Of a DNA stretch of 41,170 nt, positions 17,325 through 36,586 are shown piece after piece (position 1 is the stretch's first letter; each line of letters starts with the position of its first letter). Where the stretch lies: contig CBDETK010000001.1 in the NCBI GenBank assembly GCA_965242865.1, forward strand, positions 1 through 41,170, in the 5' to 3' direction. A program made the position numbers and the translations under genes. The notes under the pieces are model-generated. The model had not been told where the DNA came from and did no database searches. It worked only from the letters and a program-made list of their open reading frames with translations. This stretch comes from Candidatus Latescibacterota bacterium (GTDB lineage Bacteria > Latescibacterota > UBA2968 > UBA8231).

Positions 17325-18503
17325 ATGCGGATTGAGCAGATCGAAATCCGGAACTACCGTGTGTTCCGCAATGTGAAGCTGACCAAGCTCCCTTCAATGA
17401 CAGTGGTGGTGGGTGCGAACGGAACGGGCAAGTCAACACTCTTCGATGTGTTCTCGTTTCTGAAGGACGCCGTTGTCGGAAACGCGACTTCCGCGGTTGC
17501 CGGACGCGGCGGATTCAAGGAGATCGTCAGTCGCAATCAGAGGGGTCCGGTTGGGATCACCATCAAGTTTCGAGAGAGCGGCGGACGCCTAGCCTCGTAC
17601 ATCCTCGACGTGGCACTCAAGAAGGGACGAGTGATCGTGAATCGAGAAGTGTTGCGCTACCAACATGGTGTTGGTAGCGGCCGCTCGAGGCACCTCGTCG
17701 ATTTCTCTGCCGGAAGCGGCACGGCTATTGCGAATGAGTCGGTCTACGGCAAAGCGGGTGCAGTCGAGCATCGAGAGCCTTACGTGCTTGAAGATCCAAG
17801 CATTCTCGCCATAAAAGGGTTGGGACAGTTTCGTGAATTCCGCGTAGCCTCGGAGCTTCATAGCCTAATTGAGAACTGGCACACTTCGAACATTCATATC
17901 GCCGCCGCCCGACCAAGTGCCGAAGCTGATTGCGCCGAACACTTGTCTGCGCGAGGAGACAATGTTGCACAGGTTGCGCAATATCTTTACGAAAACCACC
18001 CCGAGCAATTTGGGAGGGTGTTAGCTAGCATGCGGTCACGCGTCCCGGATGTGGTTGACGTCAAAGCCATGCGGACCGAAGATGGCCGCTTGGTGCTGCG
18101 TTTCCAAGGCGGACGTTTCAAAGAGCCATTCACTGCTCGCTACGTGTCGGATGGTACGATGAAGATGTTTGCATACCTCATACTCCTCAATGACCCGAAA
18201 CCTCACCCATTGCTTGCGGTTGAGCACCCAGAGAATCAGCTCTATCCAGCATTCCTCGGGGAACTCGTTGAAGAATTCAGGGACTACGCACGGCGGGGAG
18301 GACAGGCTTTCGTGTCAACGCATTCCTCAGATTTCTTGGATGGAGTGAAACTTGATGAAGTCTACTGGTTGGAAAAAGCGGAGGGATTCTCTACGATCCA
18401 TCGCGCTCGGGACCAAGAGCTGCTCAAGAGCCTCGTAGACTCCGGTGATTATCTCGGTGATCTCTGGAGAAGGCGTCTGTTTGGCAAGGTGGATCCAAGA
18501 TGA
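17325..18503 (+). CDS. ABC-type/AAA_21 (AbiEii-like) ATPase
   Basis: MRIEQIEIRNYR start, Walker A GANGTGKS, signature VSDGT, variant Walker B AVEHPENQLYP, H-loop VSTHS, C-terminal LGDLW; RBS AAGGAGG upstream. Confidence 0.88.
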   Translation: MRIEQIEIRNYRVFRNVKLTKLPSMTVVVGANGTGKSTLFDVFSFLKDAVVGNATSAVAGRGGFKEIVSRNQRGPVGITIKFRESGGRLASYILDVALKKGRVIVNREVLRYQHGVGSGRSRHLVDFSAGSGTAIANESVYGKAGAVEHREPYVLEDPSILAIKGLGQFREFRVASELHSLIENWHTSNIHIAAARPSAEADCAEHLSARGDNVAQVAQYLYENHPEQFGRVLASMRSRVPDVVDVKAMRTEDGRLVLRFQGGRFKEPFTARYVSDGTMKMFAYLILLNDPKPHPLLAVEHPENQLYPAFLGELVEEFRDYARRGGQAFVSTHSSDFLDGVKLDEVYWLEKAEGFSTIHRARDQELLKSLVDSGDYLGDLWRRRLFGKVDPR

Positions 18504-21838: not shown

Positions 21839-22768
21839 TTACGGAGCGACAGGCTCCGGGACGTACTGCCGCAGAAAGCGCGCGCTCTGTCGCAACGAGA
21901 GCTTGCGGGCCTCCAAGGATCCCTCGTATGCTCGATCCTCGACTTCGACGCAGACCGGCCCGTCGTAACCCGTCGATGTAAGCGTCGAGAAGAACTGCCC
22001 CCAATTCACGTCACCCAAGCCGGGGAGCTTGGGCGTGTGGAACTGCAAGGGGTAGGCCAAGATCCCCACATCGTTCAAGAGGTGCCGATCGATCCGGACA
22101 TCCTTGGCATGCACGTGGAAAACGCGGTCGCGGAATTCGCGCAGCGGGGCGACGGCGTCCATGTGCATCCACGTCGGGTGCGAAGGGTCGTAGTTCAGTC
22201 CGAACGATGCGCTGGGAATGTCTTCGAACATGCGCCGCCAGATCGCGGGCGAGAAGGCGAGATTCTTGCCGCCCGGCCACTCGTCGCGGGTGAACGTCAT
22301 CGGGCAGTTCTCGATGCCGACCCGGACACCGCAATCTTCGGCGAACGCGATTAGCGGACGCCACACGCTCAGGAAGTTCGGCCAGTTCTCTTCGACGGAG
22401 AGAGTCCAGTCGCGTCCCACGAACGTGTTCACGGTCTCTAGGCCAAGGGCCTGCGCTCCGCGGATCACGCGGCGAATCTGATCCTGGGCGATCCGCGCCT
22501 CGTCTTCGTCCGGAGACAACGGATTCGGGTAGTATCCGAGAGCGCTGATCTGCACGCCGTGGCGTTCGACCGACTCGCGGATCTCCGCCATCAGGGCGTC
22601 ATCGAGGCTGGCCACGTCGATGTGCGTGACCCCTGCGTAGCGACGCTCGGCCTTGCCGGGCGGCCAGCACATGACTTCGATGCAGTCGTAGCCCTCCTCC
22701 GCGCCCACCTCGCAGATCTGGTCGAAGGAGAGTTCCGGCAAGATGGCGCTGACGTAACCGAGTTGCAT
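21839..22768 (-). CDS. Sugar phosphate isomerase/epimerase (xylose isomerase-like TIM barrel)
   Basis: [28 protein letters not shown] and VEVED metal-binding motifs. Confidence 0.9.
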
Positions 22769-22936
22769 GCCAGCCCCAGATTAGAGGATTCGGGTCGCGT
22801 GTCCGGCTGGACCGTCGGTACGACCGCCGAGGCTGGCTCGTGAGCGAAGGTCCAAGCGCAAGTCGCTCGGGCGCTGAACAGTCTGGCTCGTTCAGTGTCT
22901 GCACGGTTCGACCGACTCGATGTGCATGCCGTTTCG

Positions 22937-22970
22937 AAAAGGGAACGGCGGGGCTTGCGCCCCGCCGTTC
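22937..22970 (-). terminator. Rho-independent terminator
   Basis: Perfect 12-bp stem (22943-22954/22959-22970), GCAA tetraloop on the minus strand, followed by CCUUUU. Confidence 0.85.
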
Positions 22971-23026
22971 GTTGCAAACACAAGTTCACAAGGAGAAGGT
23001 GTTTTGAATTGCAATCGTGCTTCGTT
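22937..23026 (-). ncRNA. Candidate small RNA, copy 1 (anti-SD core plus intrinsic terminator); 5' end estimated
   Basis: Minus strand: ...ACACCUUCUCCUUGUGAAC...GAACGGCGGGGC-GCAA-GCCCCGCCGUUC-CCUUUU. Homologous to 24001-24093, including an upstream promoter-like motif. Confidence 0.7.
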
Positions 23027-23032
23027 CCCCAT

Positions 23033-23059
23033 GACGATTGAGCGGCACGGGTTTACGGC
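23033..23059 (-). promoter_or_regulatory. Putative ECF-sigma-type promoter of sRNA copy 1
   Basis: Minus strand GCCGTAAACCCGTGCCGCTCAATCGTC aligns without gaps to GCCGAAAAAGTCCGCCGCTCGCTCGTC upstream of copy 2; CGTC is a typical ECF -10. Confidence 0.55.
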
Positions 23060-23159
23060 AGGCCCCCGCGCAATCCCGGGCGGCGCGGCATGCTTTTACG
23101 AACCCTTTACATTGAATTCTCATCACGCATGACGAAACGCCCTCGATCCGACTGGCCGC

Positions 23160-23972
23160 TTACGCCGTTGAGGAGTCCAAATCCCGGTACGCGAGCAATT
23201 CAATGCCGTTGGCACCGACGGCGTCGAGCACGGCTGGATCGCACAGAGCCTGCATTTCGGCATGCCGACTCTCCTTGAGCCTCGTGTTCGCGGCGGAGAG
23301 TTCGGATCCGCAGTAGCCGGGGTGGCACACAAGCTCTCCCGTGCCCTGCGGCAACTCGCCCAGCAAGGCGACAAGCCATGCGGCATCCACGGCGCCGGTC
23401 GCCGCGAATCCGGCGAAGTAATCGCTCGTGCCGCACCCGGCCCGGGCCAGGCGCGTTTCGAACGGGACCCGCAACGAGCCCACGGCGGTCGCGATCCAGC
23501 GGCGTCCCGAGCGAACCGTCCCGAACGGAATGTCGAAAGGCTTGCGAATCCACCGGATGCCGAATTCGCGCGCGACCTCGGTTACGGCATCAAGCACGGG
23601 CGGGAAGACATGCAGGTGCTTGTGGGTGTCCAAGTGATCGAGTCCGATGCCCCGCGCCAAGAGCTGTTCCACCTGGGATCGGAATTCGCGGATCGCGTCT
23701 TCGCGCGTCGGCGGATCGACCAGCAGTCTTCCCAGCGACGGGGGCAGGGTCGTGCCGGGGCGCGCGACGGACACCCCCTCGACGAGCGTTAGGTGGCAGC
23801 CGACCGCTAGCGTGGGGCACTGGAGCGCCAAGCTGACAGCGTGCTCCAGCGCGGAGCCGTTCGCCAGCAGCGAGGCGGAGCGGACGATCCCGTGCCGGTG
23901 GGAGTGCAAGATCCCTTCGTTGACGTCCCGGGTGTACCCGAAGTCGTCAGCATTGACGATCAATCGCTTCAC
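23160..23972 (-). CDS. ChbG/HpnK (YdjC-family) carbohydrate deacetylase
   Basis: MKRLIVNADDFG, GCHLTL, HLDTHKHLH, ELVCHPGY and R..E..AL motifs. Confidence 0.93.
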   Translation of the reverse strand: MKRLIVNADDFGYTRDVNEGILHSHRHGIVRSASLLANGSALEHAVSLALQCPTLAVGCHLTLVEGVSVARPGTTLPPSLGRLLVDPPTREDAIREFRSQVEQLLARGIGLDHLDTHKHLHVFPPVLDAVTEVAREFGIRWIRKPFDIPFGTVRSGRRWIATAVGSLRVPFETRLARAGCGTSDYFAGFAATGAVDAAWLVALLGELPQGTGELVCHPGYCGSELSAANTRLKESRHAEMQALCDPAVLDAVGANGIELLAYRDLDSSTA

Positions 23973-24000
23973 ACGGGAAGCACGGTGGCAGGGGTTCCCT

Positions 24001-24035
24001 AAAAATAGAACGGCGAGGCTTGCGCCTCGCCGTTC
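24001..24035 (-). terminator. Rho-independent terminator
   Basis: Perfect 12-bp stem (24008-24019/24024-24035), GCAA loop and U5 tract on the minus strand. Confidence 0.85.
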
Positions 24036-24093
24036 GTGTCAACCACAGGTTCACAAGGAGAAGGTGTATTCGAACCGTAGTTTGTGTCAGCGT
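24001..24093 (-). ncRNA. Candidate small RNA, copy 2; 5' end estimated
   Basis: Same 19-nt core (plus strand GTTCACAAGGAGAAGGTGT at 24049-24067 and 22984-23002) and terminator GAACGGCGAGGC-GCAA-GCCUCGCCGUUC-UAUUUUU. Confidence 0.7.
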
Positions 24094-24099
24094 CTCTTA

Positions 24100-24126
24100 G
24101 ACGAGCGAGCGGCGGACTTTTTCGGC
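24100..24126 (-). promoter_or_regulatory. Putative ECF-sigma-type promoter of sRNA copy 2
   Basis: Minus strand GCCGAAAAAGTCCGCCGCTCGCTCGTC(TA), conserved with the copy 1 upstream motif. Confidence 0.55.
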
Positions 24127-24270
24127 AAGACTTGCGCACGAGCTGAAGAATATTCGCTCGTGCGGCCCGGCGCTGTCACCCTTGATAGGGAGTCGACTGG
24201 CGGCACGAGTCGGGCGAGTCGTCTTTTTCCCGCCGCCCAGCGTCTTGCCTAGTGGGCGGATGAATCGTTC

Positions 24271-24849
24271 ATGATCCCCGGATCCGAAGATCGCGCCCTC
24301 GTCCGGCGCGCGCGGCGCGGTGATGCCCGGGCCTACGCCGTTCTGGTATCGCGATGGGAGAAGAAGGTCTACAACTACCTGCTGCGCTCGCTAGGCAACC
24401 GGGAAGACGCTTTGGACGCATGCCAAGAGACGTTCTTGAAGGCGTATCGCGGCTTGCCGCGGCTCGCGGATACCGGACGATTCCCGCAATGGCTCTTTCG
24501 CATCGCCCACAACGAGGCCGCCTCCCTCCATCGTCGACCGCGGCCAGCTTCGGCAGTCGAAGACATCGAGACGACTGCGGATTTCGCGAGCCTGCCCGGG
24601 ATTCGGGTCGGAGGATTCGGCTACGGCGATGCCGAACTCGCTTTCCTCGTGGAGCAGGCACTCGGCACGCTGCCGGTGCGCCAACGCGAAGCGGTGCTCC
24701 TCAAGGTGACGTACGGGTTCAAGTTTGACGAGATCGCGGAGATTCTGGACTGTCCGGCCTCGACGGTCAAATCACGTCTGTATGCGGCCTTCGACGCTTT
24801 GCGCGAAGTGCTGGAGCCGGTTACTAATGCGAAGGAGGTACGCACGTGA
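24271..24849 (+). CDS. ECF (sigma-70 group 4) RNA polymerase sigma factor
   Basis: DALDACQETFLKAY and WLFRIAHN (region 2); LPVRQREAVLL...EIAEILDCPASTVKSRL (region 4). Confidence 0.95.
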   Translation: MIPGSEDRALVRRARRGDARAYAVLVSRWEKKVYNYLLRSLGNREDALDACQETFLKAYRGLPRLADTGRFPQWLFRIAHNEAASLHRRPRPASAVEDIETTADFASLPGIRVGGFGYGDAELAFLVEQALGTLPVRQREAVLLKVTYGFKFDEIAEILDCPASTVKSRLYAAFDALREVLEPVTNAKEVRT

Positions 24850-25508
24850 GTGTTTCACCGGAAGAAATCAGAGACTACCTGCTCGACGATTTGCCATCCC
24901 AGCGCAGGGCGGCTGTCGAAGCCGCGCTCAGGAGCGATCCGCAGGCCCGGAAGGAATTGGAAGTCCAGCGCAGGCTCTTGGGCGCACTGCGTTCCCTGCC
25001 GGAAGCGGAGGTTCCGGAGCACTCCTCGTTCGTACCGGATCCGGTACCGGCGGTAACCGCCCGCCCGGCATCCTCGCGGTGGGGCGCAGGGTACGGATTC
25101 CGCCTAGCGGCCGTCTGCGCGGCAGTGCTGGTGGGACTCTTCGGAGCGGTCTGGCTCAGTCAACCTACCGTCCAGCGCCTTCCGGATGGATGGATCGTTT
25201 CGTTCGGAGGTGCGCCGAAGGCGCCCGTTCCTCCCGGCCCGGCGGTCAGCGAGGAGCAACTCCGCGCTGCGATCCGGGAAGAAATCGAGCGGAGCTCTGC
25301 CCGTTGGGCGAGCGCGCTAATCGAAGTCTCAGCCTCGGCGGCGGGCGCGGAAGGCACCGAAGCGGAAGTCGCAGCACTCCGGCAGGAGGTCGCGGCAATG
25401 CATGCCGACTCCGTGGCCGCCTACCGATTCTTGAATGCCAAGCACGAACTTCTCAAGCGACAGCTCCTCGAATTCGATCTAGCCGCGATTCCGGAGACTC
25501 GGCCATGA
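24846..25508 (+). CDS. Probable membrane-anchored anti-sigma factor
   Basis: Overlaps the sigma stop (GTGA). N-terminal IRDYLLDDL...VEAAL resembles an anti-sigma domain without HxxxCxxC, followed by one TM helix (LAAVCAAVLVGLFGAVWL) and a coiled-coil C-terminus. Confidence 0.75.
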   Translation: MSVSPEEIRDYLLDDLPSQRRAAVEAALRSDPQARKELEVQRRLLGALRSLPEAEVPEHSSFVPDPVPAVTARPASSRWGAGYGFRLAAVCAAVLVGLFGAVWLSQPTVQRLPDGWIVSFGGAPKAPVPPGPAVSEEQLRAAIREEIERSSARWASALIEVSASAAGAEGTEAEVAALRQEVAAMHADSVAAYRFLNAKHELLKRQLLEFDLAAIPETRP

Positions 25509-26050: not shown

Positions 26051-27715
26051 ATGGCGATGCAAGCAACGCGCGGGGCCCCAGCCGAGCAACCCGAGTGCCT
26101 CGGCACGGTGCTCGTCGAGAAGGGCCTGCTGCAGCAGAGCGATCTCGATCGGGCAACGCGCCTGCAAGCGGACCACGGGAGCTGTCTCGGCCGCACGCTG
26201 GTGGACTTGGGGCTGGTCAAGCCCCGCGATTTGCTGGAAGTCGAGTCCACGTACTTCGGAATCCCCTTGATCCACAAGGAGGACTTTCCGAGCGAACCGC
26301 CTTCTGTAGGTCATGTTCCGCCAGACTACCTGCGTCAGTTCCGGATGCTCCCCCTCGCGCTGGAGGGCGAGCACCTCGCGGTGGCAACGAGCGACCCGCT
26401 CGACTTGGAATCGCTCACCAGCATCAAGTCCCTGACCGGCCGACCCGTAAGGCTCGTCCTAGCCACGGAGAGCGACATTCTTGCCGCGATTGACGAGCGC
26501 TACGGCTCGCCGGAGAAGCGCGAGATCGCCGAGGCGAGCGCTGACGACATCGAGCAATTGCGCGACATGGCCTCCGAGGCTCCGGTGATTCGATACGTGA
26601 ACGCCATGATCGCGCAAGCCCTTGAAGAGCGCGCCAGCGACATTCACTTGGAGCCGCTAGAGGACGACTGCCAAGTGCGCTTTCGGATTGACGGCATCTT
26701 GGAACCCCGGAATGCCCCGCCCCGCCCGATGCGGGCGCCGGTCGTATCGAGGCTGAAGCTGATGGCGGGACTGAACATCGCCGAACGCCGCTTGCCGCAG
26801 GACGGGCGCATCGAACTCCGCATACTCGGCCGGGATCTCGACGTGCGCGTCGCCACGCTCCCGACACTCCACGGGGAATCCGTGGCGCTGCGCTTGCTCG
26901 ACCGCGCGACCTCCGGGGGCTTCAGTCTCGAATCGCTAGGCCTTGGAGAGGATCTGCTGGCGCGGGTGGCGCGCCTAGCTGCCGTGCCCCACGGCTTGCT
27001 GCTCGTGACGGGCCCGACCGGTAGCGGCAAGACGACCACGCTGCACGCCGCGCTGAAGAGCGTGAACTCCCCGACGCGCAAGATCGTGACGCTCGAGGAC
27101 CCCGTCGAGTATCGACTCGAGGGCGTCACCCAGATTCATGTCAATCCCCCGATCGGACTGACCTTCGCATCCGGGCTGCGGCACATCGTGCGGCAAGACC
27201 CGGACGTGATCATGGTGGGCGAGATTCGCGACGCCGAGACCGCCGAGACCGCCGTGCGGGCGGCCCTGACCGGGCACGCCGTGTACTCGACCTTGCATAC
27301 GAACGATTCCGCGAGCGCAATCACGCGACTGGCGGACATGGGTGTCGAACGCTATTTGCTGGCCTCCTCGGTCATCGCAGTCCTCGCCCAGCGGCTCGTG
27401 CGCCTGCTATGCGCGCGCTGCAAGACACCGAGCCGACCCGCGACCGACCCCGACGGGCGGCCCGTCCGCACCTGGCAAGCGCCCGGCTGCAAGGAATGCC
27501 GGGGCCAAGGGTACAGCGGCAGGATCGGGATCTTCGAGCTGCTGGAAATCACCGAGCCCATCCGGCAGACCGTCGCCAGCAACCACAGCGCGAGCGAACT
27601 CGGTGACGCGGCCCGGAAACAAGGCATGCGAACGCTGCAATGGGACGGATGGCAGAAGATCGAGCGGGGTCTGACAACCGTCGAGGAGGTGCTCGGCGCC
27701 ACGCCGGAAGGGTGA
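26051..27715 (+). CDS. gspE: Type II secretion ATPase
   Basis: ASDIHLEP, ERRLPQDGRI, GPTGSGKTTTL, EDPVEY, RQDPDVIMVGEIRD, STLHTND and CxxC...CxxC. Confidence 0.95.
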   Translation: MAMQATRGAPAEQPECLGTVLVEKGLLQQSDLDRATRLQADHGSCLGRTLVDLGLVKPRDLLEVESTYFGIPLIHKEDFPSEPPSVGHVPPDYLRQFRMLPLALEGEHLAVATSDPLDLESLTSIKSLTGRPVRLVLATESDILAAIDERYGSPEKREIAEASADDIEQLRDMASEAPVIRYVNAMIAQALEERASDIHLEPLEDDCQVRFRIDGILEPRNAPPRPMRAPVVSRLKLMAGLNIAERRLPQDGRIELRILGRDLDVRVATLPTLHGESVALRLLDRATSGGFSLESLGLGEDLLARVARLAAVPHGLLLVTGPTGSGKTTTLHAALKSVNSPTRKIVTLEDPVEYRLEGVTQIHVNPPIGLTFASGLRHIVRQDPDVIMVGEIRDAETAETAVRAALTGHAVYSTLHTNDSASAITRLADMGVERYLLASSVIAVLAQRLVRLLCARCKTPSRPATDPDGRPVRTWQAPGCKECRGQGYSGRIGIFELLEITEPIRQTVASNHSASELGDAARKQGMRTLQWDGWQKIERGLTTVEEVLGATPEG

Positions 27716-27733
27716 GGCGCGAGACAGGGGCAC

Positions 27734-28939
27734 ATGCAGACATTTCGCTACAGGGCGGTCAACGCGGACGGGCATGCGCTGAGCGGTTCGCTCGCCGCCG
27801 AGGACGGGCGGATGGCCGCGCGCGAATTGCGGAAGCGGGGCTTGGTAGCAACCGACATTCATGCCGAAGCACCCTCCCGCCGGAAACGGAGCGCCGGGCC
27901 GTCTTGGCGTCACCGGCGGGCCACGCTGCGGTTCACTGAAGAGGTCGCGACACTCTTACAAGCGGAGGTCCCGCTGGAACGAGCGCTGGAGACTGTCGCG
28001 GAGGTTGCCGAATCCGAGCGCGACGCCCTCGCCATTCGTGCGATCTTGCGTAACGTGCGATCAGGGGAGTCGTTCGCCGGCGCACTTGGCCTCCAACCGG
28101 ATCGCTTTTCCCGCCTCTACATCAACATGGTGCGGGCCGGCGAGGCGTCCGGAGCGCTGCCGGTCGTGATGGACCGGTTGGCTGCGTTCGAGCGCACTCG
28201 GGACGAAATGCGTAGCGAATTGTCCTCCGCGCTCGCCTATCCCGCGCTGCTGCTGGCGGTCGGCTCCGCGTCGTTGCTGGTCATGCTGTGGTACGTGGCG
28301 CCGAGCTTGACCGAGACGTTGCGCAGTTCAGGCACCGAGCCGACCCTGGCCTTGCAACTCATGCTGAGCGGCGGCGAGGCGCTACGCCGCTGGTGGCTGG
28401 TCCTGACGCTGCTACCGACAGTTGCGGCGGGCGCGCTCGTTTGGTGGGCGCGCACGGCCTCGGGTCGCCGGCGCATGGACGCGGCACTGCTCCGCGTCCC
28501 CGTGATTGGACGCCTCGTGCGGCATGCCGTCACGGCGCGCTTCGCCCGGGCGATGGCGACTCTCCTCGGCGCATCCGTGCCGATCCTTCCAGCACTCGGC
28601 ATCGCTCGAAGCGTGCTCGCGAACCGGGCGGTAGAAGCGGCATTGGAACCCGTCACGGAAGCGGTCAAGCGGGGCGAGACCGTCGCCCGATCCGTCGCTG
28701 GCACCCAAGTGTTTTCGGCCCTTGTCGGCAGGCTCCTAGCCGTGGGCGAGGAAACCGGCCACTTGGACCGCATGTTCGACCAAGTGGCGACGATTCACGA
28801 GCGCCAGACGCGCGAGGCGCTCAAGCGATTCAACGCGCTTCTCGAACCGCTCGTGATCCTGCTGCTCGGCGGCTTGATCGCCATCATGGTGTTCGGAACG
28901 CTGCTCGCGCTGTCCGGCGTCCAGCGCATGGGGTTGTGA
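27734..28939 (+). CDS. gspF: Type II secretion inner-membrane platform protein
   Basis: FRYRAV, MVRAGEASGAL, ALAYP, VGEETGHL and LLEPLVIL; three hydrophobic segments. Confidence 0.93.
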   Translation: MQTFRYRAVNADGHALSGSLAAEDGRMAARELRKRGLVATDIHAEAPSRRKRSAGPSWRHRRATLRFTEEVATLLQAEVPLERALETVAEVAESERDALAIRAILRNVRSGESFAGALGLQPDRFSRLYINMVRAGEASGALPVVMDRLAAFERTRDEMRSELSSALAYPALLLAVGSASLLVMLWYVAPSLTETLRSSGTEPTLALQLMLSGGEALRRWWLVLTLLPTVAAGALVWWARTASGRRRMDAALLRVPVIGRLVRHAVTARFARAMATLLGASVPILPALGIARSVLANRAVEAALEPVTEAVKRGETVARSVAGTQVFSALVGRLLAVGEETGHLDRMFDQVATIHERQTREALKRFNALLEPLVILLLGGLIAIMVFGTLLALSGVQRMGL

Positions 28940-29341
28940 ATGGAATCTAGGGAGCGACCCAGACCGAGCGCGGCGGGCATCACGCTGATCGAGATGCTCG
29001 TGACCGTGACGATCATCGCCTTGTTCGCGGCGGTTGCCTGGCAGCAACTCGCCCCGGTCGGGGACCAAGGCCGGCGGGCCGCGGCCCGTGCCCAGATCGA
29101 ATCGTTCATGACGGCGCTGCAACGCTTCAATCTCGACGAAGCGCGCTTTCCGGCTGCATCGGAAGGGCTCGAGGCGATCCGCCCCTACCTCGACAAGGAG
29201 ATCCCGCTCGATCCGTGGGGCAATCCCTACGTGTACCGCTTTCCCGGGGAACACGGGCCGGGACCGGAAGTCCTCTGCTTCGGGTCCGACGGTCAGCCGG
29301 GCGGCGAGGACGCCGCGGCGGACATCGTCAGCTGGCGGTGA
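28940..29341 (+). CDS. gspG: Major pseudopilin
   Basis: Prepilin site G/ITLIEML; P...GLEA, PLDPWGNPYVY and GSDGQPGG..DI motifs. Confidence 0.93.
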   Translation: MESRERPRPSAAGITLIEMLVTVTIIALFAAVAWQQLAPVGDQGRRAAARAQIESFMTALQRFNLDEARFPAASEGLEAIRPYLDKEIPLDPWGNPYVYRFPGEHGPGPEVLCFGSDGQPGGEDAAADIVSWR

Positions 29342-29353
29342 GGGCAGGCGGTC

Positions 29354-29797
29354 ATGCGCTTCAAGCGGGCCGGAGTGACCTTGCTCGAGGTCTTGGTGGC
29401 GACGACGCTGGCGGGACTCGCCCTCGCCGTAGCGTACCCGGGGTTAGACCGGGCGTTGGACGGCATTCGACTGCGCAGCGCCTCGGACGCGGCAGGAACG
29501 TTGCTGCTCCAGTCGCAACAGCACGCGGACCGGAACCGGGTAGCCGTGGCGGTACGCATCGATCCGTCGGCTGGCCTGATCCAGGCAGGCACGGGCGACG
29601 GGGCTTGGCATCGGGAACTTGAATTCCAACCGCCTGTTCGCATCGTCTTGCCCGACCGCGAACTGACGGTCGTCTTGCACCCAGGGGACATGCCCCCGAA
29701 CCTAACCGTGGCGCTTGCCGCCCGCGGGGACGGTCGGGTCGGCTTCAGCGTGGACCCGCTAGACGGCACGCTCCGGGACTTGAGGGCCGACCGATGA
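29354..29797 (+). CDS. gspH: Minor pseudopilin (GspH-like)
   Basis: G/VTLLEVL N-methylation motif; position after gspG. Confidence 0.75.
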   Translation: MRFKRAGVTLLEVLVATTLAGLALAVAYPGLDRALDGIRLRSASDAAGTLLLQSQQHADRNRVAVAVRIDPSAGLIQAGTGDGAWHRELEFQPPVRIVLPDRELTVVLHPGDMPPNLTVALAARGDGRVGFSVDPLDGTLRDLRADR

Positions 29798-30177
29798 TCC
29801 GCAAGAACGGATTCTCGTTGCTGGAAGTTGCGGTCGCCACGCTGCTGCTCGGCGTCGCCGCCGTGGGCATCCTTAGCGCGATCGGTTCGTCAGTGTCAGC
29901 GGCGGGCGCCGCGCGCGATCACGGCGAAGCCGGACTCCTCGCCAGGAGTTGCATGAACGAACTGCTCTCTCGCCGGTCTCTCGAACCCGGCGCAACTTTC
30001 AGGGGGCGGCATGGATCCGCTTCCGAATGGGAAGCGTTCGTGGAACCGCTCGATGGATTCGGTGCTGACGCGAAGGGCAACCGCCTGATGCGCGTCCGGC
30101 TGGAATGGCGGTGGCAGCGCGGGGGCGAGCGGAGATCGATTCGCCTAGAGGGCTACCGGAGGCTGCGACTGCCATGA
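29794..30177 (+). CDS. gspI: Minor pseudopilin (GspI-like)
   Basis: G/FSLLEVAVA motif; gene order; ATGA overlaps. Confidence 0.78.
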   Translation: MIRKNGFSLLEVAVATLLLGVAAVGILSAIGSSVSAAGAARDHGEAGLLARSCMNELLSRRSLEPGATFRGRHGSASEWEAFVEPLDGFGADAKGNRLMRVRLEWRWQRGGERRSIRLEGYRRLRLP

Positions 30178-30902
30178 ATCGACGCCGCGCACCCGCTTCC
30201 GGCATGGAGCGGTCAACGCGGGGCGCCACGCTCGTCGAAGCAGTGACCGCCCTGACGCTGCTGGCTCTATTGGCTACCGGTCTGGTCGCGGTGACCGGGA
30301 ACGGGTTGCGCGCTTGGGTCGAGACACGCGAAGCGCTGCGACAGGACCGGCGCCTCGGAATGGCGAGCTTGCGGCTGCACGAGGCCATCTCCTCTATCGT
30401 CCCGTTGGTCACGCCGCGACCGCGGGGAGAGTCGCCGCAACCGTTCTTTCAAGGGGAGGAGCGCACGGTGCGTTTCGTCACCGGGCATTCGCCCACGACG
30501 GGCGGGCGAGCGGGCCTGCGGTTCGTCACATTGGGGGCGATACCCGAATCGGGCGGTGTCCAGTTCGTCTTGACAGATGTCCCTTGCCCGAGTCTGCAGG
30601 AACTTGGCGCGCTTCTGGAGAGTCCCGCCTCGAACGCCGCGAGCCCCTTGGTAGGGGCGGAATCCTGGACTGTCGCGGAGGATCTGGTCGACTTTAGCCT
30701 CGAGTATTTGGAGATCCCTGCGGGGACTGACGAACCGGAACGCTGGGTGAGTCGCTGGCGCGACAAGAACAGAGTGCCTCGGGCAGTGCGCATCCGGTGG
30801 ACCTCGGGCGTGTCGAGTGCCGGATCGCGCGACGGGCAACAACGTTGGGTCACGGCATCAGTGCCTGCCGAGGCGGAAGCGCTTGGAGGGCTCGGCCGAT
30901 GA
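30174..30902 (+). CDS. gspJ: Minor pseudopilin (GspJ-like)
   Basis: RG/ATLVEAV motif, FFQG, W...W...PRAVRI; gene order. Confidence 0.78.
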   Translation: MNRRRAPASGMERSTRGATLVEAVTALTLLALLATGLVAVTGNGLRAWVETREALRQDRRLGMASLRLHEAISSIVPLVTPRPRGESPQPFFQGEERTVRFVTGHSPTTGGRAGLRFVTLGAIPESGGVQFVLTDVPCPSLQELGALLESPASNAASPLVGAESWTVAEDLVDFSLEYLEIPAGTDEPERWVSRWRDKNRVPRAVRIRWTSGVSSAGSRDGQQRWVTASVPAEAEALGGLGR

Positions 30903-31888
30903 CCCCGAGGTCGGCAGAATGCTCGGGTCGTCGATGCTCCGCACGGCGCGGTTCGGCCCTGCTCGCCGTGCTGGGCGGCGTCACGACATTGAGCTGTATC
31001 GCTCTCGCTCTCTCCTCGTCGGCTCGGACCGCCTTGGATCGCGCCGCACTGCGGGCGGACAGCGCGCAGGCGTACTTGCTGGCTCGCGGGGGCATCGAAG
31101 CGGCGCTGCACGAACTCGCGAATGGAACGGTTCGGAGAGGCTTTCTGTCGGGAAGCGTCCAGCGTGATTACAGCTTCCCGGCGGGCACCGCCGATGTGCG
31201 AATCGTAGCGGAGTCCGGAAAAATCAATGTGAACCGGTGCGGCAGGCAAGCGCTGCGAATCCTCATCGGCGGGCTGGTTTCCGCACCCGACAACGCGGGC
31301 TCTCTGGCCGACGGCATCGTGCAATACGGGCAGGGGTTGCTTGCGGGCCGCATCCGCCACTTCAATCCGTCGCAGCCCGGTTCTCCGGATTCGACCCAGC
31401 GGTCGTCTTTCGAGCGGCGATTCGCGTCTATACAAGTAGTTGAGGAACTCTTGACGGTTCCGGGCATCTCTCCAGACCTGCTTTACGGTACGTACCGACC
31501 CGTCGCGCCGGACAGCGGAAGGAAAGGGCTGCGAGAGATCGCGGGCCTGCGCCGCTACCTGCGAACGGAAGGATCCGCAAGTGTCGACATCAACGCGGCT
31601 CCCCGCGCCGTGCTCCTCGCTACCGGCCTGTCCGCGGCCCTAGCCGACGAAGTGCTCGCCGCTCGGGAGCAAGCCCCGCTTTCTCAGACCGGGGCGCTCT
31701 TCCGCCGAGCATCGCGAGCCGCCATGCACTTGCCGCTAAGCACCGGTGCCGATGCCGGAGAGTGGACGATCACGGCAACGGGGAGGGAGCTTGCGCGGCT
31801 CGCCTCGCGCACCGTCGCGGCGACGGTCGAGGCAAGCGAATCGACCGGTCGCTTGCGGGTCCGCCGCTGGTACGAGCGACCGCTCTAG
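30899..31888 (+). CDS. gspK: Minor pseudopilin GspK
   Basis: RG/SALLAVL (no Glu5), ESGKINVN, EELLTVPGI and VDINAAP motifs. Confidence 0.88.
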   Translation: MTPRSAECSGRRCSARRGSALLAVLGGVTTLSCIALALSSSARTALDRAALRADSAQAYLLARGGIEAALHELANGTVRRGFLSGSVQRDYSFPAGTADVRIVAESGKINVNRCGRQALRILIGGLVSAPDNAGSLADGIVQYGQGLLAGRIRHFNPSQPGSPDSTQRSSFERRFASIQVVEELLTVPGISPDLLYGTYRPVAPDSGRKGLREIAGLRRYLRTEGSASVDINAAPRAVLLATGLSAALADEVLAAREQAPLSQTGALFRRASRAAMHLPLSTGADAGEWTITATGRELARLASRTVAATVEASESTGRLRVRRWYERPL

Positions 31889-31893
31889 GGTCC

Positions 31894-33282
31894 GTGGATC
31901 GCACCGAACGCATGCTGGGAGGGGTTCTTGCCGGGTCGACTGGTTGCGGGATTGCCGTGCGGGGCGCGGATCTCGTCGCCGTCGCGGTGCGCGTTGAGCG
32001 CGCCGGCGTCGCCGTGCTCGGTCGGGTGCGTATTCCGGAATTCGCCGAGCGCCCTCCCCAAGAGTGGGGTCGGGAGTACCGGGGATTCCTTCTCCAGTGC
32101 GGGATCAAAAAAGGACACGCGACTCTCTGCATGCCGCGGCAAGACGTCGTCCTGCGGACTCTCGACCTGCCCCCGATGCCGACGCGAAAACTCGCGTCCT
32201 CGGTCACTCTGCAGGTGCCGGGCCTGCACCCGTTCGGAGACGAGGAAGTCCTACATGACTGGGTGTGTCCGGAGGGTCAGGTTGGCGAACTCGGGCGGCG
32301 GAAGATCCCGACGATCATTGCCCGTACCGCCACGATCAACGCCTATGAGGAGCGGTTCGCGGCGGCGGGCATCCACTTGTCCGCATGCACGGTCGCGGCT
32401 TCGGCGCTAACCGCAGCCACGCGTCTGCGCGCAACCTCGCTTTCCGAACCGATTCTGATCGCGGACATCGAGGGAGAGCAACTCGAACTGTATGGCCGAT
32501 CCGCTGGAAATCCGCTTTGGAGTGCCGCGATCGACCTCGGCGGCGTGACACTGGAAGGTGCCCTGCGCCTAGCACTCGAGGGCCTGCCGGGGCATGGCGA
32601 TCGGCCGACCGGGGTGGCATTCGCGGGAACGGAGATCCCCCCCGACCCGGTGACGGGTCTCGGCATCGTGCCGCTCCGCGACATGCTGCCCGAGCCGGTT
32701 CGCGCGGCCGAGGGGTTTGACTTGGTGCGCGACGCGGTGGCCTACGCGACAGCCATCGAGTCGGCCCGGCCCCGCGCCGGCCTGCGACTGAACTTGCTTC
32801 CTGCCCGCCGACGGACGTTCCTGTCGCTCCTCCCGTCCGGCCGCACATTGGTGCTACTGGGCCTGCTTGCACTTCTCGGCTGCGCACATCTCGCAGTCTT
32901 GGTGTTGGAAGATCGCAGCTATGCCGAGAGGCTTCGGAAAGAGGCTGCACGGCTAGAAGCGGACGCGGATACGTTCGCTCCCGACAATGCCGAGGCCGCG
33001 GATCTTCAAGTCAGTTTGGACTGGCTGCGGCATCGCCGGAATCGGGCCGCGCGCGACCTCGTCACGCTGCGCGAAATCTCCCGGATCCTTCCGCCGTCCG
33101 CATGGCTGACGGGCCTCACGCTGGACGACGCGACAGCGACCCTCACAGGGGTCGCAACGAACGCGAACCCGCTGCCGGGCATCATCGACGCCTCCTCAAC
33201 CCTCGGCACCCCGCGATTCTCCATGGCCCCCTCTAGAGGCGACCGTGGCGAGAACTTCCAAATCGAGGCAACCCGCCGATGA
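31894..33282 (+). CDS. gspL: GspL/PilN-like assembly platform protein
   Basis: Cytoplasmic domain, LNLLP motif, one TM helix and a PilN-like C-terminus (LREISRILPPSAWLT...LTG). Start GTG 31894 or ATG 31912. Confidence 0.75.
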   Translation: MDRTERMLGGVLAGSTGCGIAVRGADLVAVAVRVERAGVAVLGRVRIPEFAERPPQEWGREYRGFLLQCGIKKGHATLCMPRQDVVLRTLDLPPMPTRKLASSVTLQVPGLHPFGDEEVLHDWVCPEGQVGELGRRKIPTIIARTATINAYEERFAAAGIHLSACTVAASALTAATRLRATSLSEPILIADIEGEQLELYGRSAGNPLWSAAIDLGGVTLEGALRLALEGLPGHGDRPTGVAFAGTEIPPDPVTGLGIVPLRDMLPEPVRAAEGFDLVRDAVAYATAIESARPRAGLRLNLLPARRRTFLSLLPSGRTLVLLGLLALLGCAHLAVLVLEDRSYAERLRKEAARLEADADTFAPDNAEAADLQVSLDWLRHRRNRAARDLVTLREISRILPPSAWLTGLTLDDATATLTGVATNANPLPGIIDASSTLGTPRFSMAPSRGDRGENFQIEATRR

Positions 33283-33872
33283 GCGGCTTCAAGAATCTTT
33301 CCGAGCGAGACAAGCGAGCGCTCCGCGTCCTCGCGGTCGTCCTTGCCCTCGCCCTGCTCTGGCTGTTAGGTGGAACCCTGCCGGCATCCAGGCAGGCTGC
33401 CGCCGAGGCAAGCCTCGAAACGCTCGAGCAGCGATACCTGCTCGCTCGGCAAGTTGCGGCGCGGCAGCCCGCCCGCGAGCGCGAGTCGCGCCAGGTGACC
33501 CGCGCCATGGCGCAACTGGAAAGCGGGCTCCTGCAATCGCCATCGCCGGCACTGGCACAAGCCGAGGTGCGCACCGCGATGTCGGGCTTCTTGGAGCGGG
33601 CAGGGATCGAACTGGAACGATCGAGCTTCGCGCCGCCCGAGACGGCCGGACCGTATGACGCAGTCTCCTTGGGCGTCGAATTCAGGTGCGAGATGGAGCA
33701 ATTCGTGGACCTTCTGGCGACGCTAGCGAACGCGGAGACGCTCCTCGCTCCGCGGAATGTCGAGTTGCGGCCTGACGGTTCCGGGGCGAACTCGATTCGC
33801 GTAAGGCTCACGGTCGAAGGCTACTTGCGGAAGAGCACCGAGAACCGATTCGATGCGGAGGCCCTGCCATGA
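33279..33872 (+). CDS. gspM: GspM-like protein
   Basis: LSERDKRAL followed by a TM helix and coiled coil; gene order. Confidence 0.75.
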   Translation: MSGFKNLSERDKRALRVLAVVLALALLWLLGGTLPASRQAAAEASLETLEQRYLLARQVAARQPARERESRQVTRAMAQLESGLLQSPSPALAQAEVRTAMSGFLERAGIELERSSFAPPETAGPYDAVSLGVEFRCEMEQFVDLLATLANAETLLAPRNVELRPDGSGANSIRVRLTVEGYLRKSTENRFDAEALP

Positions 33873-34609
33873 GGCTCGCTTTCCGCTGGTGGGACATTGC
33901 CCTGCTTGCGACGTTCGTCCTGAGTTGCTGGCACCTCTGGCACTACTCCCGGGCGAAGAACGCGCGCAACGACATCTTCGACGGCGGCGCGCGGCAGGAA
34001 GAAGTTGCCGGTCTGGCGGAGTCGTCTACCCCGCCCGCGCTCCAAGCGGGGGAATTCACCGAGATTGCCGAGAGCATGCTGTTCAGGCCCGGCCGGGGCA
34101 CCGCGGTTCGAGTCTCTTCGACGCAGACCGTGCATTCGCCGATCGTCGCCCTGCCGAGGCTTTTCGGCGTCGCCGACTTGGGCGACGGACCGGCTGCCCT
34201 GCTCGCGGCGCGGCCGGGCATGCGGGCCGAGTGGGTGCGTCCGGGCCAGCCGGTCGGCGAATTCGTCCTGCGGTCAGTCAGCTCGGACGCCTTGGTGTTC
34301 CTCCGATCCGGCAGCGTCTTCACGGCCACCCCCGACGAACTGCGCAATCCAGAGCGCACGGCCACGCGAGCCGTACCGTCGAATCGCGTCAACGCGCCGT
34401 CACGGCCCGCGACTCGCATCGGCGACGAGCCCACTGCAAGTAGGCCGCCCGGAGGTGAGTATCGCGTGGGCGCGGAGTTCCGTCCGGGTCGCTTCGCCGC
34501 GGACCCGAATGACGGCGCGACGGATGGCACGACCTCCGGCGGATACGTCCGCCGGGTGCATCATTCTCCGTTCGGCGCCCAGCACTGGTGGGAAAGAGAG
34601 GAACGGTAG
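33869..34609 (+). CDS. Bitopic protein at the GspC/GspN position
   Basis: N-terminal TM, LFRP.R motif, PRLFGV...A...G..VGEF.L..V (PilP/GspC HR-like); immediately before the secretin. Confidence 0.65.
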   Translation: MRLAFRWWDIALLATFVLSCWHLWHYSRAKNARNDIFDGGARQEEVAGLAESSTPPALQAGEFTEIAESMLFRPGRGTAVRVSSTQTVHSPIVALPRLFGVADLGDGPAALLAARPGMRAEWVRPGQPVGEFVLRSVSSDALVFLRSGSVFTATPDELRNPERTATRAVPSNRVNAPSRPATRIGDEPTASRPPGGEYRVGAEFRPGRFAADPNDGATDGTTSGGYVRRVHHSPFGAQHWWEREER

Positions 34610-34615
34610 AGGGCC

Positions 34616-36586
34616 ATGACCGACACGGCATCGCAACTTGGCCGACAGGGCGGCCCGGCCACCGGTCTACGCCCTTGGCATCGTTCGTTCGGCGCGGTGG
34701 CGGGCATCGCGCTGCTGCTGGCAGGCATCACCGCCGATTCCGCGCGCGCACAAGGGCAGCCGGGGGAGGACGTGCCGGCGAACCTCTCGTTCAGCAACTT
34801 TCGCGACGCCAGCCTCTTGGATGTGGTCGATATTCTGGCGCGGCGCCTGCAACTCAATTACGTCGTCGATCCCGCGGTTCCGGACGGTTCCGTGACCGTG
34901 AATACGTACGGCCCGCTCGGAGAGGCCGATCTGCGCCCGTTGCTCGAGACCATCCTGCGGATGAACGGAGCGGCGGCCGTGCAGGTCGGGAACACGACCC
35001 GGATCGTGCGCTTGGATGATGCGCCGCGCATGCCGATCGATGCCCTCCCAGACGGGGCGGACCTGCCCGAAGACGAGCGCCTCGTGCTCAACGCGATTCG
35101 CTTGCGCCACGCATCGGCCGCCGAGCTTTCCGAGATCCTCGAGCCGTTCCTCGGCCCGGGCGGCCGCTACGCGGTGGTCGACAGCGCGAACGCTCTGCTG
35201 GTGCTGGACAACAGCCGCAACATGCAGAGGACCATGGACTTGATCGCGTTGTTCGACACGGAGGAACTGGTCGACCAAAAGATGCGACTGTTCGTGATCG
35301 AGAACAGCTTGGCCACTACCTTGGCTTCCGAGGTCGAGGAGATCTTCCAGACGATCCCGGGCGCCGCGCGTACCGACGCGATCCGGTTCCTGCCGCTTCC
35401 GCGAATCGGGGCGCTACTGGCCGTAAGCACCAGCGACAAGTACATGGAGGAAGCCGCGTCTTGGATTCAGCAACTGGACCAAGCTACCGTTTCCGGCGGC
35501 AGGCGCAATTTCGTCTACCGCGCCCAGTACGGAGAGGCAGCGAATCTGGCGGCGACAGTCCAGCAACTCTACAGCGGCGCTCCGACAGTCCTCGGGGGTG
35601 CAAGCGGCCAGGACGCGCTAGCATCCTTGAACACGGAAGCACCATTGATGGCGGAGCCGTCGCTGCGGATCGTAGCCGACACGATCAACAACCTCGTGCT
35701 GGTGCAAGCGACCAAGCAGGAATGGGAAGCTGTCCGCGGCACGCTCCTCGCGCTCGACACCGCTCCGCGACAGGTGCTCATCGACGCCAGGATTTACGAG
35801 GTGAGCCTTACCGATTCGCTCTCGAGCGGCGTGTCCGCCTACCTGCGCTCTCGATCCAAGGACCCCGCCGTGCGCAAGCTGGGCGTCGGCCTGAGGCCCA
35901 GCGGAGTGGCGAATCTCAGCATCGGCGCGCTCGTGAGCAACACGCGGGAATTGGCGATCTTCCTCGAAGGCAGCGCGGAGGAGGGCCGGACCAAGGTGAT
36001 CTCGGCGCCGTCGCTGATCGCGACGGACAACATCCCGGCCGAGATCGTGGTCGGACAGACCATTCCCACGCTGTCGTCCCAAGCCGTCGTGGGCGGCGCG
36101 TTCTCCGAGGGCTCGTCGCTCTTCACCAACACGGTGAGCAACGTGCAAACCGGCGTCCGGCTGTCCGTGACCGCGCGGGTCAACGCCTCGGGCATCGTGA
36201 CGCTGCGGATCATGCAGGAGGTCTCCACGCCCACCGGCATCACCGGCACGATCCAGTCCCCGACGATCGATCGCCGGAATGTCAGCACACAGGTAACCGT
36301 GAAGGACGGAGACACGGTCGCGATCGGCGGGATCATCCAAGAGACCAGCATTTTCAACTCAAGCCGCGTACCGATCCTCGGACGGATCCCGGTCCTGGGG
36401 AGAGCCTTCGGCAGCACGGAAGAGACTACGAGCAAGACCGAGTTGATCGTGCTGCTGGAGCCGCGCGTGATCTACGACCAGAACCAAATCGCGAGCGCCA
36501 CGGACGAACTCATGGCCCGGCTCGAGTCGCTCCGGCGGGTGGTGCGGGCCTCAGAACCGGTCGGCGAAGACGACGTAGCTGAATAG
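34616..36586 (+). CDS. gspD: Type II secretion secretin
   Basis: N-domain repeats, [48 protein letters not shown] and [12 protein letters not shown]. Confidence 0.95.

What the first reader, a model, noticed from the sequence alone, without database searches (positions are those of the whole stretch)
22937..24126. Two sibling small RNAs with an anti-Shine-Dalgarno core, flanking the deacetylase gene
Seen: two intergenic segments about 1065 bp apart share an identical 19-nt block (minus strand ACACCUUCUCCUUGUGAAC) and a perfect 12-bp hairpin with a GCAA loop and U-tract. The one stem difference is compensatory (G-C in copy 1, A-U in copy 2), which points to selection on RNA structure. The sequence between these blocks has diverged more. 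The core contains CUCCUU, complementary to the AAGGAG ribosome-binding site. Known: sibling base-pairing sRNAs with anti-SD seeds repress translation in other phyla. Inference: these are ~90-nt trans-acting sRNAs, and I do not recognise the family.
Basis: partly seen in the sequence, partly recalled or inferred. Interest (0 to 1): 0.85.

Follow-up and report, generated by a model that had tools for sequence, protein, structure and literature searches.

The report
Twin terminator-ended RNA elements, function unproven
Two near-identical short elements, each a pyrimidine-rich block followed by a strong transcription terminator, flank a deacetylase gene and are plausible but unproven small regulatory RNAs or leader attenuators in an uncultured soil-type bacterium.

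Summary
On the minus strand, two about 73-nt units (22937-23008 and 24001-24074; 63 of 73 columns identical) each hold an identical 19-nt CU-rich block, a 13-nt linker, a perfect 12-bp GCAA hairpin (-27.0 and -24.9 kcal/mol) and 4-5 U. The one stem difference is compensated.

No Rfam family matches. No small ORF is supported: all six codon differences are non-synonymous.

These are the only perfect 12-bp stem-loops on the 41-kb contig. Copy 2's terminator follows no gene. The pre-terminator part is more conserved than the homologous upstream DNA (p 0.004).

The sRNA reading stays untested. I found no promoter, no RNA data and no orthologues I could fetch. A 5' stem-loop and an antiterminator were both no better than chance.

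Copy 2 ends 28 nt before the deacetylase start codon, so a cis-acting leader or attenuator is a serious rival.

The contig is probably foreign to its assembly. It carries GlyQS, which 30 of 30 congeners lack, and looks acidobacterial. So "two copies per genome" and "absent in relatives" carry little weight.

Verdict: a credible candidate, a new member of a known kind, of moderate interest.

The parts
22937..22942 (-). Copy 1 tail after the hairpin: CCUUUU (4 U at 22937-22940)
   Evidence: Read. It fails the 5-T rule of the terminator scan. In a 97.4%-identical strain, 22942 differs.
22943..22970 (-). Copy 1 terminator hairpin: 12 perfect pairs with a GCAA loop
   Evidence: I20. Folds at -27.0 kcal/mol. 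Present in all folds.
22971..22983 (-). Copy 1 linker, 13 nt, 9 of 13 identical to copy 2
   Evidence: Alignment A2.
22984..23002 (-). Copy 1 19-nt CU-rich block holding CUCCUU
   Evidence: Unpaired in the 81-nt fold.
23003..23072 (-). Copy 1 upstream region. The first 6 nt are conserved. Weakly conserved islands follow (UGCCG.AAA, GCCGCUC..UCGUC). It could be a promoter or a leader RNA.
   Evidence: The anchored alignment of the 60 nt upstream gave z 3.5, and 2 of 1000 shuffles reached it. 35 of 62 columns are identical.
23160..23972 (-). YdjC/ChbG/HpnK-family deacetylase gene between the two copies
   Evidence: Pfam PF04794, 2.6e-59. Sources name homologues as ChbG/HpnK family deacetylase.
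24001..24007 (-). Copy 2 tail: UAUUUUU. It ends 28 nt before the YdjC GTG at 23972.
24008..24035 (-). Copy 2 terminator hairpin: 12 perfect pairs with a GCAA loop. A-U stands where copy 1 has G-C.
   Evidence: I24. Folds at -24.9 kcal/mol.
24036..24048 (-). Copy 2 linker
   Evidence: Alignment A2.
24049..24067 (-). Copy 2 19-nt CU-rich block
   Evidence: It sits in a 17-nt loop in the 101-nt fold.
24068..24139 (-). Copy 2 upstream region, in the divergent gap before the ECF sigma gene. No minus-strand gene lies upstream of it.
   Evidence: The only sigma-70-like candidate (GTGACA-N19-AATATT) ends 81 nt before the block and has no counterpart in copy 1.
21839..22768 (-). Xylose-isomerase-like TIM-barrel gene, 168 nt downstream of copy 1's U tract
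   Evidence: Pfam PF01261, 1.6e-43.
24271..24849 (+). ECF sigma factor gene, divergent from copy 2
   Evidence: Pfam Sigma70_r2 and r4_2.

Best explanation
The two units are paralogous genes for short minus-strand RNAs that end at the 12-bp terminators. The length is about 75-90 nt if transcription starts just upstream of the conserved part; the 5' end is unknown.

The invariant CU-rich block ahead of the terminator would be the working part. It is unpaired or sits in a loop in the predicted folds. It would pair with purine-rich ribosome-binding regions (AAGGAG-like) of target mRNAs and block translation initiation, as sibling base-pairing sRNAs do.

Copy 2 probably doubles as the 5' leader of the deacetylase gene, so the short RNA may be released by premature termination.

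Shown: the sequence anatomy, the terminators, the lack of coding signal, the uneven conservation, and the lack of any Rfam match.
Inferred: transcription, the 5' end, trans action and the targets.
For: - There are two copies with an identical 19-nt block and perfect 12-bp GCAA hairpins followed by U runs.
- The hairpins fold at -27.0 and -24.9 kcal/mol, and the one stem difference is compensated.
- The folds score z -4.0 to -4.9 against shuffles.
- Homology ends exactly at the U tract.
- The pre-terminator part has 33 of 39 columns identical, against 35 of 62 in the homologous upstream DNA (Fisher p 0.004).
- Copy 2's terminator follows no minus-strand gene, so it is an orphan terminator.
- Among the 25 longest of 49 inverted repeats on the contig, only 3 are stem-loops of 12 bp or more with a separate loop. 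Two of them are these, and they are the only perfect ones.
- The terminator scan of 1-40000 found 20 sites against about 26 expected from shuffles. Only copy 2 has more than 7 pairs.
- The small ORFs over the units differ at 6 codons, all non-synonymous, and an indel shifts the frame just upstream.
- A 97.4%-identical strain keeps the whole 2-kb arrangement without gaps. It shows no change in 22943-23026, with changes at 22942, 23027, 23028 and 23038.
- There is a precedent: sibling sRNAs with anti-SD motifs in Neisseria (PMC5362039, passages read).
Against: - No sigma-70-like promoter lies in either upstream region at a shared position.
- The 5' stem-loop that RNAalifold proposes is no better than in randomly mutated controls (p 0.31-0.64).
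- The U tracts are short, 4 and 5 U. The abstract of PMC5558911 (search listing) says Hfq-binding sRNAs have 7 or more.
- Both copies lie upstream of, and co-oriented with, a gene. Copy 2 is 28 nt from the start codon with no room for a promoter, which fits a cis-acting leader.
- With crude start calls, SD-like motifs stand before only 4 of 21 genes on the contig, against a 12.5% background.
- The strain comparison is not significant. I estimate p of about 0.14 for no change in 84 of 391 intergenic nt given 8 changes.
- Copy 2's variation was cut from the list.
- No convincing target site lies at a start codon on the contig.
Confidence: 0.4

Rival explanations
1. The units are cis-acting leaders or attenuators. 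One promoter in the divergent gap drives leader 2, YdjC, leader 1 and the TIM-barrel gene. Each terminator stops transcription unless a factor prevents the hairpin. That factor could be a protein or ligand that recognises the conserved block, or an alternative upstream pairing. The two sugar-modifying genes would then be switched together.
For: - Both units lie upstream of, and co-oriented with, a gene.
- Copy 2's U tract ends 28 nt before the YdjC GTG, and Pfam places the domain start at residue 3. The start call is therefore sound, and no promoter fits between them.
- In folds of the nascent RNA, an upstream segment (UGCGC...CYUGCCG) pairs with the 5' half and loop of the terminator in both copies. 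A C/U there matches the G/A change in the stem.
- The upstream homology has conserved islands.
Against: - The antiterminator pairing is no stronger than for shuffled upstream sequences or other 116-nt windows of the contig (p 0.07-0.26).
- No riboswitch or leader family matches. The best hit is rpsL_pseudo at 20.6 bits against a gathering score of 70, for copy 1 only.
- Copy 1 is 168 nt from the next start codon.
- Neither downstream gene has an SD complementary to the block.
Confidence: 0.3
2. The units are a duplication scar. An ordinary intrinsic terminator with some adjacent DNA was copied when the YdjC gene was placed here. One route would be a single crossover of a circle carrying one copy. 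Both hairpins now serve only as plain terminators or insulators, and the CU-rich block has no role.
For: - The direct repeats flank exactly one gene.
- A 19-nt identical run is not unusual at 86% identity (my estimate).
- The compensated pair can arise through a near-neutral G-U step.
- No promoter, structure or target signal beyond the terminator is significant.
Against: - It needs the duplication to end exactly at the U tract.
- It needs the upstream similarity to be chance, yet only 2 of 1000 shuffles reached it.
- Otherwise the uneven conservation (p 0.004) points to constraint on the block.
- Copy 2's terminator has no gene to terminate.
- The arrangement predates the split of strains that are 2.6% apart.
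- Contig lengths shared between the YdjC, TIM and ECF protein clusters hint that relatives with YdjC at 83-92% keep the neighbourhood. This is weak inference.
Confidence: 0.2
3. The element acts at the DNA level. The 28-bp palindrome or the 19-bp block would be an operator for a regulator of the two downstream genes or of the divergent ECF sigma operon.
For: - The palindrome is perfect and kept symmetric in both copies.
- Copy 2 lies in a divergent promoter region.
Against: - A GC-rich 12-bp stem with a GNRA-type loop and a one-sided T run is the standard form of an intrinsic terminator (established knowledge).
- Copy 1 has no plus-strand gene to regulate.
- The block is not palindromic.
Confidence: 0.05
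4. The units encode a small protein. A 46-codon minus-strand ORF crosses each unit.
For: ORFs 22892-23032 and 23999-24139 are both 46 aa and share a 23-residue stretch.
Against: - All 6 codon differences in the shared stretch are non-synonymous and none is synonymous.
- A 1-nt indel just upstream of the block puts the N-terminal parts in different frames.
- The C-terminal ends differ, and the frame runs through the terminator hairpin.
Confidence: 0.02

Closest known systems
Sibling base-pairing sRNAs with anti-Shine-Dalgarno motifs, e.g. NmsRA/NmsRB of Neisseria meningitidis (PMC5362039; passages read)
   Same: Two paralogous short units lie close together. Each has a pyrimidine-rich motif complementary to the SD and ends in a terminator. 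The NmsR pair is 70% identical; this pair is 86%.
   Different: The NmsRs lie in tandem in one intergenic region. They have mapped starts and promoters, and targets validated with reporters. Here a gene lies between the copies, and no transcript, promoter or target is known. No sequence relation was tested or is expected.
Rho-independent (intrinsic) terminators, including orphan terminators used to predict sRNA genes
   Same: GC-rich 12-bp stem, 4-nt loop and a one-sided U run.
   Different: Copy 1 has only 4 U. Both carry a conserved 45-nt sequence upstream of the stem, which a plain terminator does not need.
Transcription attenuators and riboswitch expression platforms in 5' leaders
   Same: The terminator lies 28 nt before a start codon (copy 2), with conserved sequence upstream of it. 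The element is repeated before two functionally related genes.
   Different: No aptamer family matches. The candidate antiterminator is not beyond chance.
Rfam RF01773, the rpsL_pseudo leader (best weak Rfam match)
   Same: The weak alignment rests on a small hairpin with a CUU-rich loop plus a terminator hairpin.
   Different: The score is 20.6 bits against a gathering score of 70, with E 0.21. Only copy 1 matches, and no ribosomal protein gene is nearby. It is not a member.
Hfq-binding sRNA terminators (PMC5558911; abstract seen in the listing)
   Same: A GC-rich terminator hairpin at the 3' end of a short RNA.
   Different: That abstract states seven or more T residues. These elements have 4 and 5.

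Membership tests
Any Rfam 15 family | Covariance-model score at or above the family's gathering score | tested here: not met
   There were 0 matches in the whole window at gathering thresholds. In 22700-24400 at E up to 10 there were only 3 weak matches; the best was 20.6 bits against 70.
Intrinsic terminator | Stable GC-rich stem-loop directly followed by a U run on the transcribed strand | tested here: met
   The stems fold at -27.0 and -24.9 kcal/mol. Copy 2 passes the scan, while copy 1 has 4 U and fails the 5-T rule.
Trans-acting base-pairing sRNA | Own promoter or transcription start giving a discrete short transcript | tested here: inconclusive
   No sigma-70-like site lies at a shared position. 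No RNA run is listed. Other sigma types are not covered by the tools.
Trans-acting base-pairing sRNA | Conserved, accessible seed | tested here: met
   The 19-nt block is identical in both copies. It is unpaired or in a loop in the folds. The comparison rests on only two sequences.
Trans-acting base-pairing sRNA | Target mRNAs with complementary sites at translation start regions | tested here: inconclusive
   A duplex scan of the 41-kb contig gave no convincing site at a start codon. The host genome itself is not available.
REP/MITE-type dispersed repeat | Many dispersed copies in one genome | tested here: not met
   There are 2 copies in the contig and none elsewhere in the 6.0-Mb assembly, by pattern at up to 3 mismatches and by covariance model. 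Most of that assembly seems to belong to another organism, so this covers only 41 kb of the real host.
Transcription attenuator / riboswitch | Alternative antiterminator pairing that competes with the terminator | tested here: inconclusive
   The pairing is present in both copies but is not stronger than in controls (p 0.07-0.26).
Transcription attenuator / riboswitch | Terminator placed in the 5' leader shortly before the regulated gene | tested here: met
   Copy 2 ends 28 nt before the YdjC GTG, and copy 1 ends 168 nt before the TIM-barrel ATG.
Small protein gene | Conserved reading frame with an excess of synonymous change | tested here: not met
   There are 6 non-synonymous and 0 synonymous codon differences, and an indel shifts the frame.

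The most novel reading that the evidence does not exclude
These are a lineage-specific pair of regulatory RNAs of an uncultured acidobacterium, forming a new family. Their invariant CU-rich block, reminiscent of the anti-SD tail of 16S rRNA (recalled, not tested), would mask ribosome-binding sites in trans. Copy 2 would be released by premature termination in the leader of a ChbG/HpnK-type deacetylase gene. One element would then act both as a cis attenuator and as a trans sRNA, next to a divergent ECF sigma operon.
Probability: 0.3. Interest if true: 0.55.

Novelty: new member of a known kind. Interest (0 to 1): 0.35.

Why it matters
If these are real RNAs, they would be a regulatory RNA family in a poorly studied soil lineage. 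The contig looks acidobacterial, and there the tools gave me no described sRNA to compare with. They would also be a compact case of an element that may act both in cis (attenuation) and in trans (SD masking). As it stands this is a well-formed candidate, not a discovery. Its main practical value is as a precise target for RNA-seq or Term-seq, and for a covariance-model search once related contigs can be fetched.

The side result also matters for anyone using this assembly: the contig seems not to belong to the genome it is filed with.

Tried and rejected
1. **Homologues in the assembly's relatives.**
- BLAST of the 83-nt unit over 41 genomes gave only short hairpin-like pieces. The best foreign hit was 27 nt at E 0.0056.
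- Covariance model R1 over 31 genus genomes matched only the two copies. One hairpin-only hit in G015 had E 0.91.
- I first read this as "species-specific". I then found that the contig is probably foreign to the assembly, so these negatives say little.

2. **Neighbour genes in the assembly's relatives.** These are explained by the same cause.
- YdjC was in 0 of 30 congeners and 0 of 167 phylum genomes.
- The TIM-barrel gene was in 1 of 30 (G018, 64% identity). No element lies at that locus.
- The ECF sigma found only paralogues at 43% identity or less, in 19 of 30.

3. **Exact 19-mer in public collections.**
- Genome contigs gave 2 loci and metagenome contigs gave 2 loci.
- All four lack the hairpin and are chance hits.
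- Close relatives of the contig appear only in Logan/ENA sources. These collections therefore probably do not hold the lineage.

4. **RNA evidence.** No RNA holder is listed. The 5 runs are of unknown kind.

5. **Laid contigs.**
- The list of differences was cut at 23592, so copy 2 could not be compared.
- X5 left parts of the stretch without cover.

6. **Structure and promoter tests.**
- The 5' stem-loop is not better than mutated nulls.
- The antiterminator is not beyond chance.
- No shared sigma-70 promoter was found.
- I looked by eye for ECF-type and sigma-54-type motifs and found nothing convincing. That is inference, not a tool result.

7. **Local alignment of the upstream regions alone.** It was not significant: 82 of 500 shuffles reached the score. 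Only the alignment anchored at the block was significant.

8. **SD usage.** The genome-wide profile mostly reflects the large contig C13, which is another organism, so I discarded it. The contig-only count is small and uses crude start calls.

9. **Plasmids.** blastn in distant mode with 22900-24150 found no match.

10. **Small ORFs on either strand.** Rejected. The plus-strand frames after the AAGGAG differ between the copies (read by eye).

11. **Papers.**
- One search was a listing.
- One search gave passages of PMC5362039.
- One search listed 12 of 1,797 papers. It does not establish whether sRNAs have been described in Acidobacteria.
- Supplements were not consulted.
Full report
**What is there**

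On the minus strand of the window, two units share the same build:
- a 6-nt conserved lead-in;
- an identical 19-nt pyrimidine-rich block, ACACCUUCUCCUUGUGAAC, at 22984-23002 and 24049-24067;
- a 13-nt linker with 4 differences;
- a perfect 12-bp hairpin with a GCAA loop, at 22943-22970 and 24008-24035;
- a short U run, CCUUUU in copy 1 and UAUUUUU in copy 2.

Over the 73 columns from lead-in to U run, 63 are identical. The block occurs twice in the window at up to 3 mismatches and never in 100 shuffles. The hairpins fold at -27.0 and -24.9 kcal/mol. Units of 81-101 nt fold 4.0-4.9 sd better than shuffles.

**How much of it is beyond chance**
- *Compensated pair.* It has a chance probability of about 0.02-0.04. 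Its G-U intermediate is nearly neutral at -24.0 kcal/mol. It argues for a kept hairpin, but only modestly.
- *Identical run.* A 19-nt identical run is not unusual at 86% identity (my estimate).
- *3' boundary.* More telling is where the similarity stops. At the 3' side it ends exactly at the U run.
- *5' boundary.* At the 5' side it falls to 35 of 62 columns. That is still more than chance when the alignment is anchored at the block: z 3.5, with 2 of 1000 shuffles reaching it. A free local alignment of the upstream parts alone was not significant (82 of 500).
- *Uneven conservation.* The pre-terminator part (33 of 39 identical) is significantly better kept than that upstream DNA (Fisher p 0.004).
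- *Rarity of the hairpins.* Among the 25 longest of 49 inverted repeats on the contig, only three are stem-loops of 12 bp or more with a separate loop. These two are the only perfect ones. The terminator scan of 1-40000 gave 20 sites against about 26 expected. All but copy 2 had 5-7 pairs.

So strong intrinsic terminators are rare here, and both sit behind the same conserved block.

**Surroundings**

The units flank a YdjC/ChbG/HpnK-family deacetylase gene (23160-23972, minus strand). Downstream of copy 1 lies a xylose-isomerase-like TIM-barrel gene (21839-22768, minus). Upstream of copy 2 an ECF sigma gene runs the other way (24271-24849, plus), followed by a type II secretion operon.

Copy 2's terminator has no minus-strand gene ahead of it. 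Its U run ends 28 nt before the deacetylase GTG. That start call is sound because the Pfam domain begins at residue 3. Copy 1 lies 157 nt after the deacetylase stop and 168 nt before the TIM-barrel ATG.

**What it is not**
- No Rfam family matches the window at gathering thresholds. The permissive search gave only a 20.6-bit resemblance of copy 1 to the rpsL_pseudo leader, whose gathering score is 70.
- It is not a dispersed repeat in the DNA available.
- It is not on any plasmid in PLSDB.
- It is not coding. Two 46-codon minus-strand ORFs cross the units, but their six codon differences are all non-synonymous. A 1-nt indel shifts the frame just upstream of the block.

**An important caveat on the comparative data**

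The window is the whole of contig C1 of its assembly, and it probably does not belong to the same organism as the 5.6-Mb contig C13.
- C1 carries glyQ and glyS. GlyS is found nowhere else in the assembly.
- C13 has its own dimeric glycyl-tRNA synthetase, at 521.5 bits against a cut-off of 243.
- None of 30 congeners has GlyS, and 0 of 12 congeners searched match PF02092.
- The best GlyS identity among the 167 other genomes of the phylum is 36%.
- The deacetylase's named homologues, at about 60% identity, are from Acidobacteriia and Bryobacterales MAGs.

So the negatives do not show that the element is single-species or that the genome has only two copies. They cover only 41 kb of the real host.

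Real relatives exist. Deacetylase orthologues at 81-92% identity, and 90%-identity clusters of the TIM-barrel and ECF proteins, are on contigs of up to 6.7 Mb. Matching contig lengths hint that the three genes stay together. That scan gave four chance hits without hairpins.

**The one strain comparison**

Contigs in three coded runs span 22500-24500 with 52 differences and no gaps. A strain 2.6% apart therefore keeps the whole arrangement.

Around copy 1 the differences fall at 22828, 22873, 22942, 23027, 23028, 23038, 23154 and 23157. None lies in 22943-23026. That pattern fits a constrained 84-nt unit, but it is not significant (about p 0.14 by my estimate). The list was cut before copy 2.

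**Mechanism**

*sRNA reading.* The anatomy fits a short terminated transcript whose working part is the invariant CU-rich block. That block is unpaired or lies in a loop in the folds. As a trans-acting sRNA it would pair with AAGGAG-like ribosome-binding sites. There is precedent in sibling sRNAs with anti-SD motifs (PMC5362039, passages read).

Against this reading:
- No shared sigma-70-like promoter was found.
- The 5' stem-loop proposed by RNAalifold is no better than in mutated controls (p 0.31-0.64).
- The U runs are shorter than the seven or more reported for Hfq-binding sRNAs (abstract of PMC5558911 in the listing).
- SD-like motifs are not frequent before the crude gene starts of the contig: 4 of 21 against a 12.5% background.
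- No start-codon target stands out on the contig.

*Leader or attenuator reading.* This rival is serious. Both units sit before co-oriented genes, and copy 2 leaves no room for a promoter. In nascent-RNA folds an upstream segment pairs with the terminator's 5' half and loop in both copies, with a matching C/U for the G/A change. That pairing is not stronger than in shuffled or genomic controls (p 0.07-0.26).

The two readings are not exclusive. A leader that terminates early releases a short RNA.

*Duplication scar.* A pure scar remains possible. It needs the duplication to end exactly at the U run and the upstream similarity to be chance.

**Verdict**

Whether it acts in trans, in cis or in both ways is open.

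My odds:
- sRNA, possibly leader-derived: 0.4
- cis attenuator only: 0.3
- scar or plain terminators: 0.2
- DNA operator: 0.05
- small protein: 0.02

It is a new member of a known kind. It is of moderate interest until transcripts or orthologues are seen.

Noticed in passing
window 1-41170 (whole contig C1 of the assembly): The contig is probably foreign to its assembly. It carries glyQ and glyS, while the 5.6-Mb contig C13 has a dimeric GlyRS and 0 of 30 congeners have GlyS. The best GlyS identity in the phylum is 36%. Named homologues of its deacetylase are acidobacterial.
   Followed up: yes
window 23160-23592: The 3' part of the deacetylase gene differs from a close strain at 32 listed positions in 433 nt (about 7%). 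There are no listed differences in 22500-22827 and 12 in 23593-24500. This mosaic suggests recombination or relaxed constraint in that part of the gene.
   Followed up: no
window 24068-24100, plus strand: Next to copy 2's block, the plus strand reads GAAC-N15-CGTCT, loosely like an ECF-type -35/-10 pair. It faces the ECF sigma gene and overlaps a CGTCT...AGACG palindrome. I saw this by eye only; the ECF consensus is recalled.
   Followed up: no
window 6299-7579 and 17325-18503: Two AAA-type ATPase ORFs give sub-threshold NCBIfam matches to anti-phage ATPases: IteA at 224 bits against a cut-off of 510, and MAD3 at 113 bits against 420. They are not members by the cut-offs.
   Followed up: no
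window 26051-36586: A type II secretion gene set lies downstream of the ECF sigma and a putative anti-sigma ORF. It includes a GspE-like T2SSE ATPase, a GspF-like protein below cut-off, and GspD over cut-off at 367.5 bits against 351.
   Followed up: partly
window 24273-24292, 25032-25047, 23294-23319: Several palindromes are built on CGGATCCG. They may be a restriction-type site or chance in GC-rich DNA.
   Followed up: no
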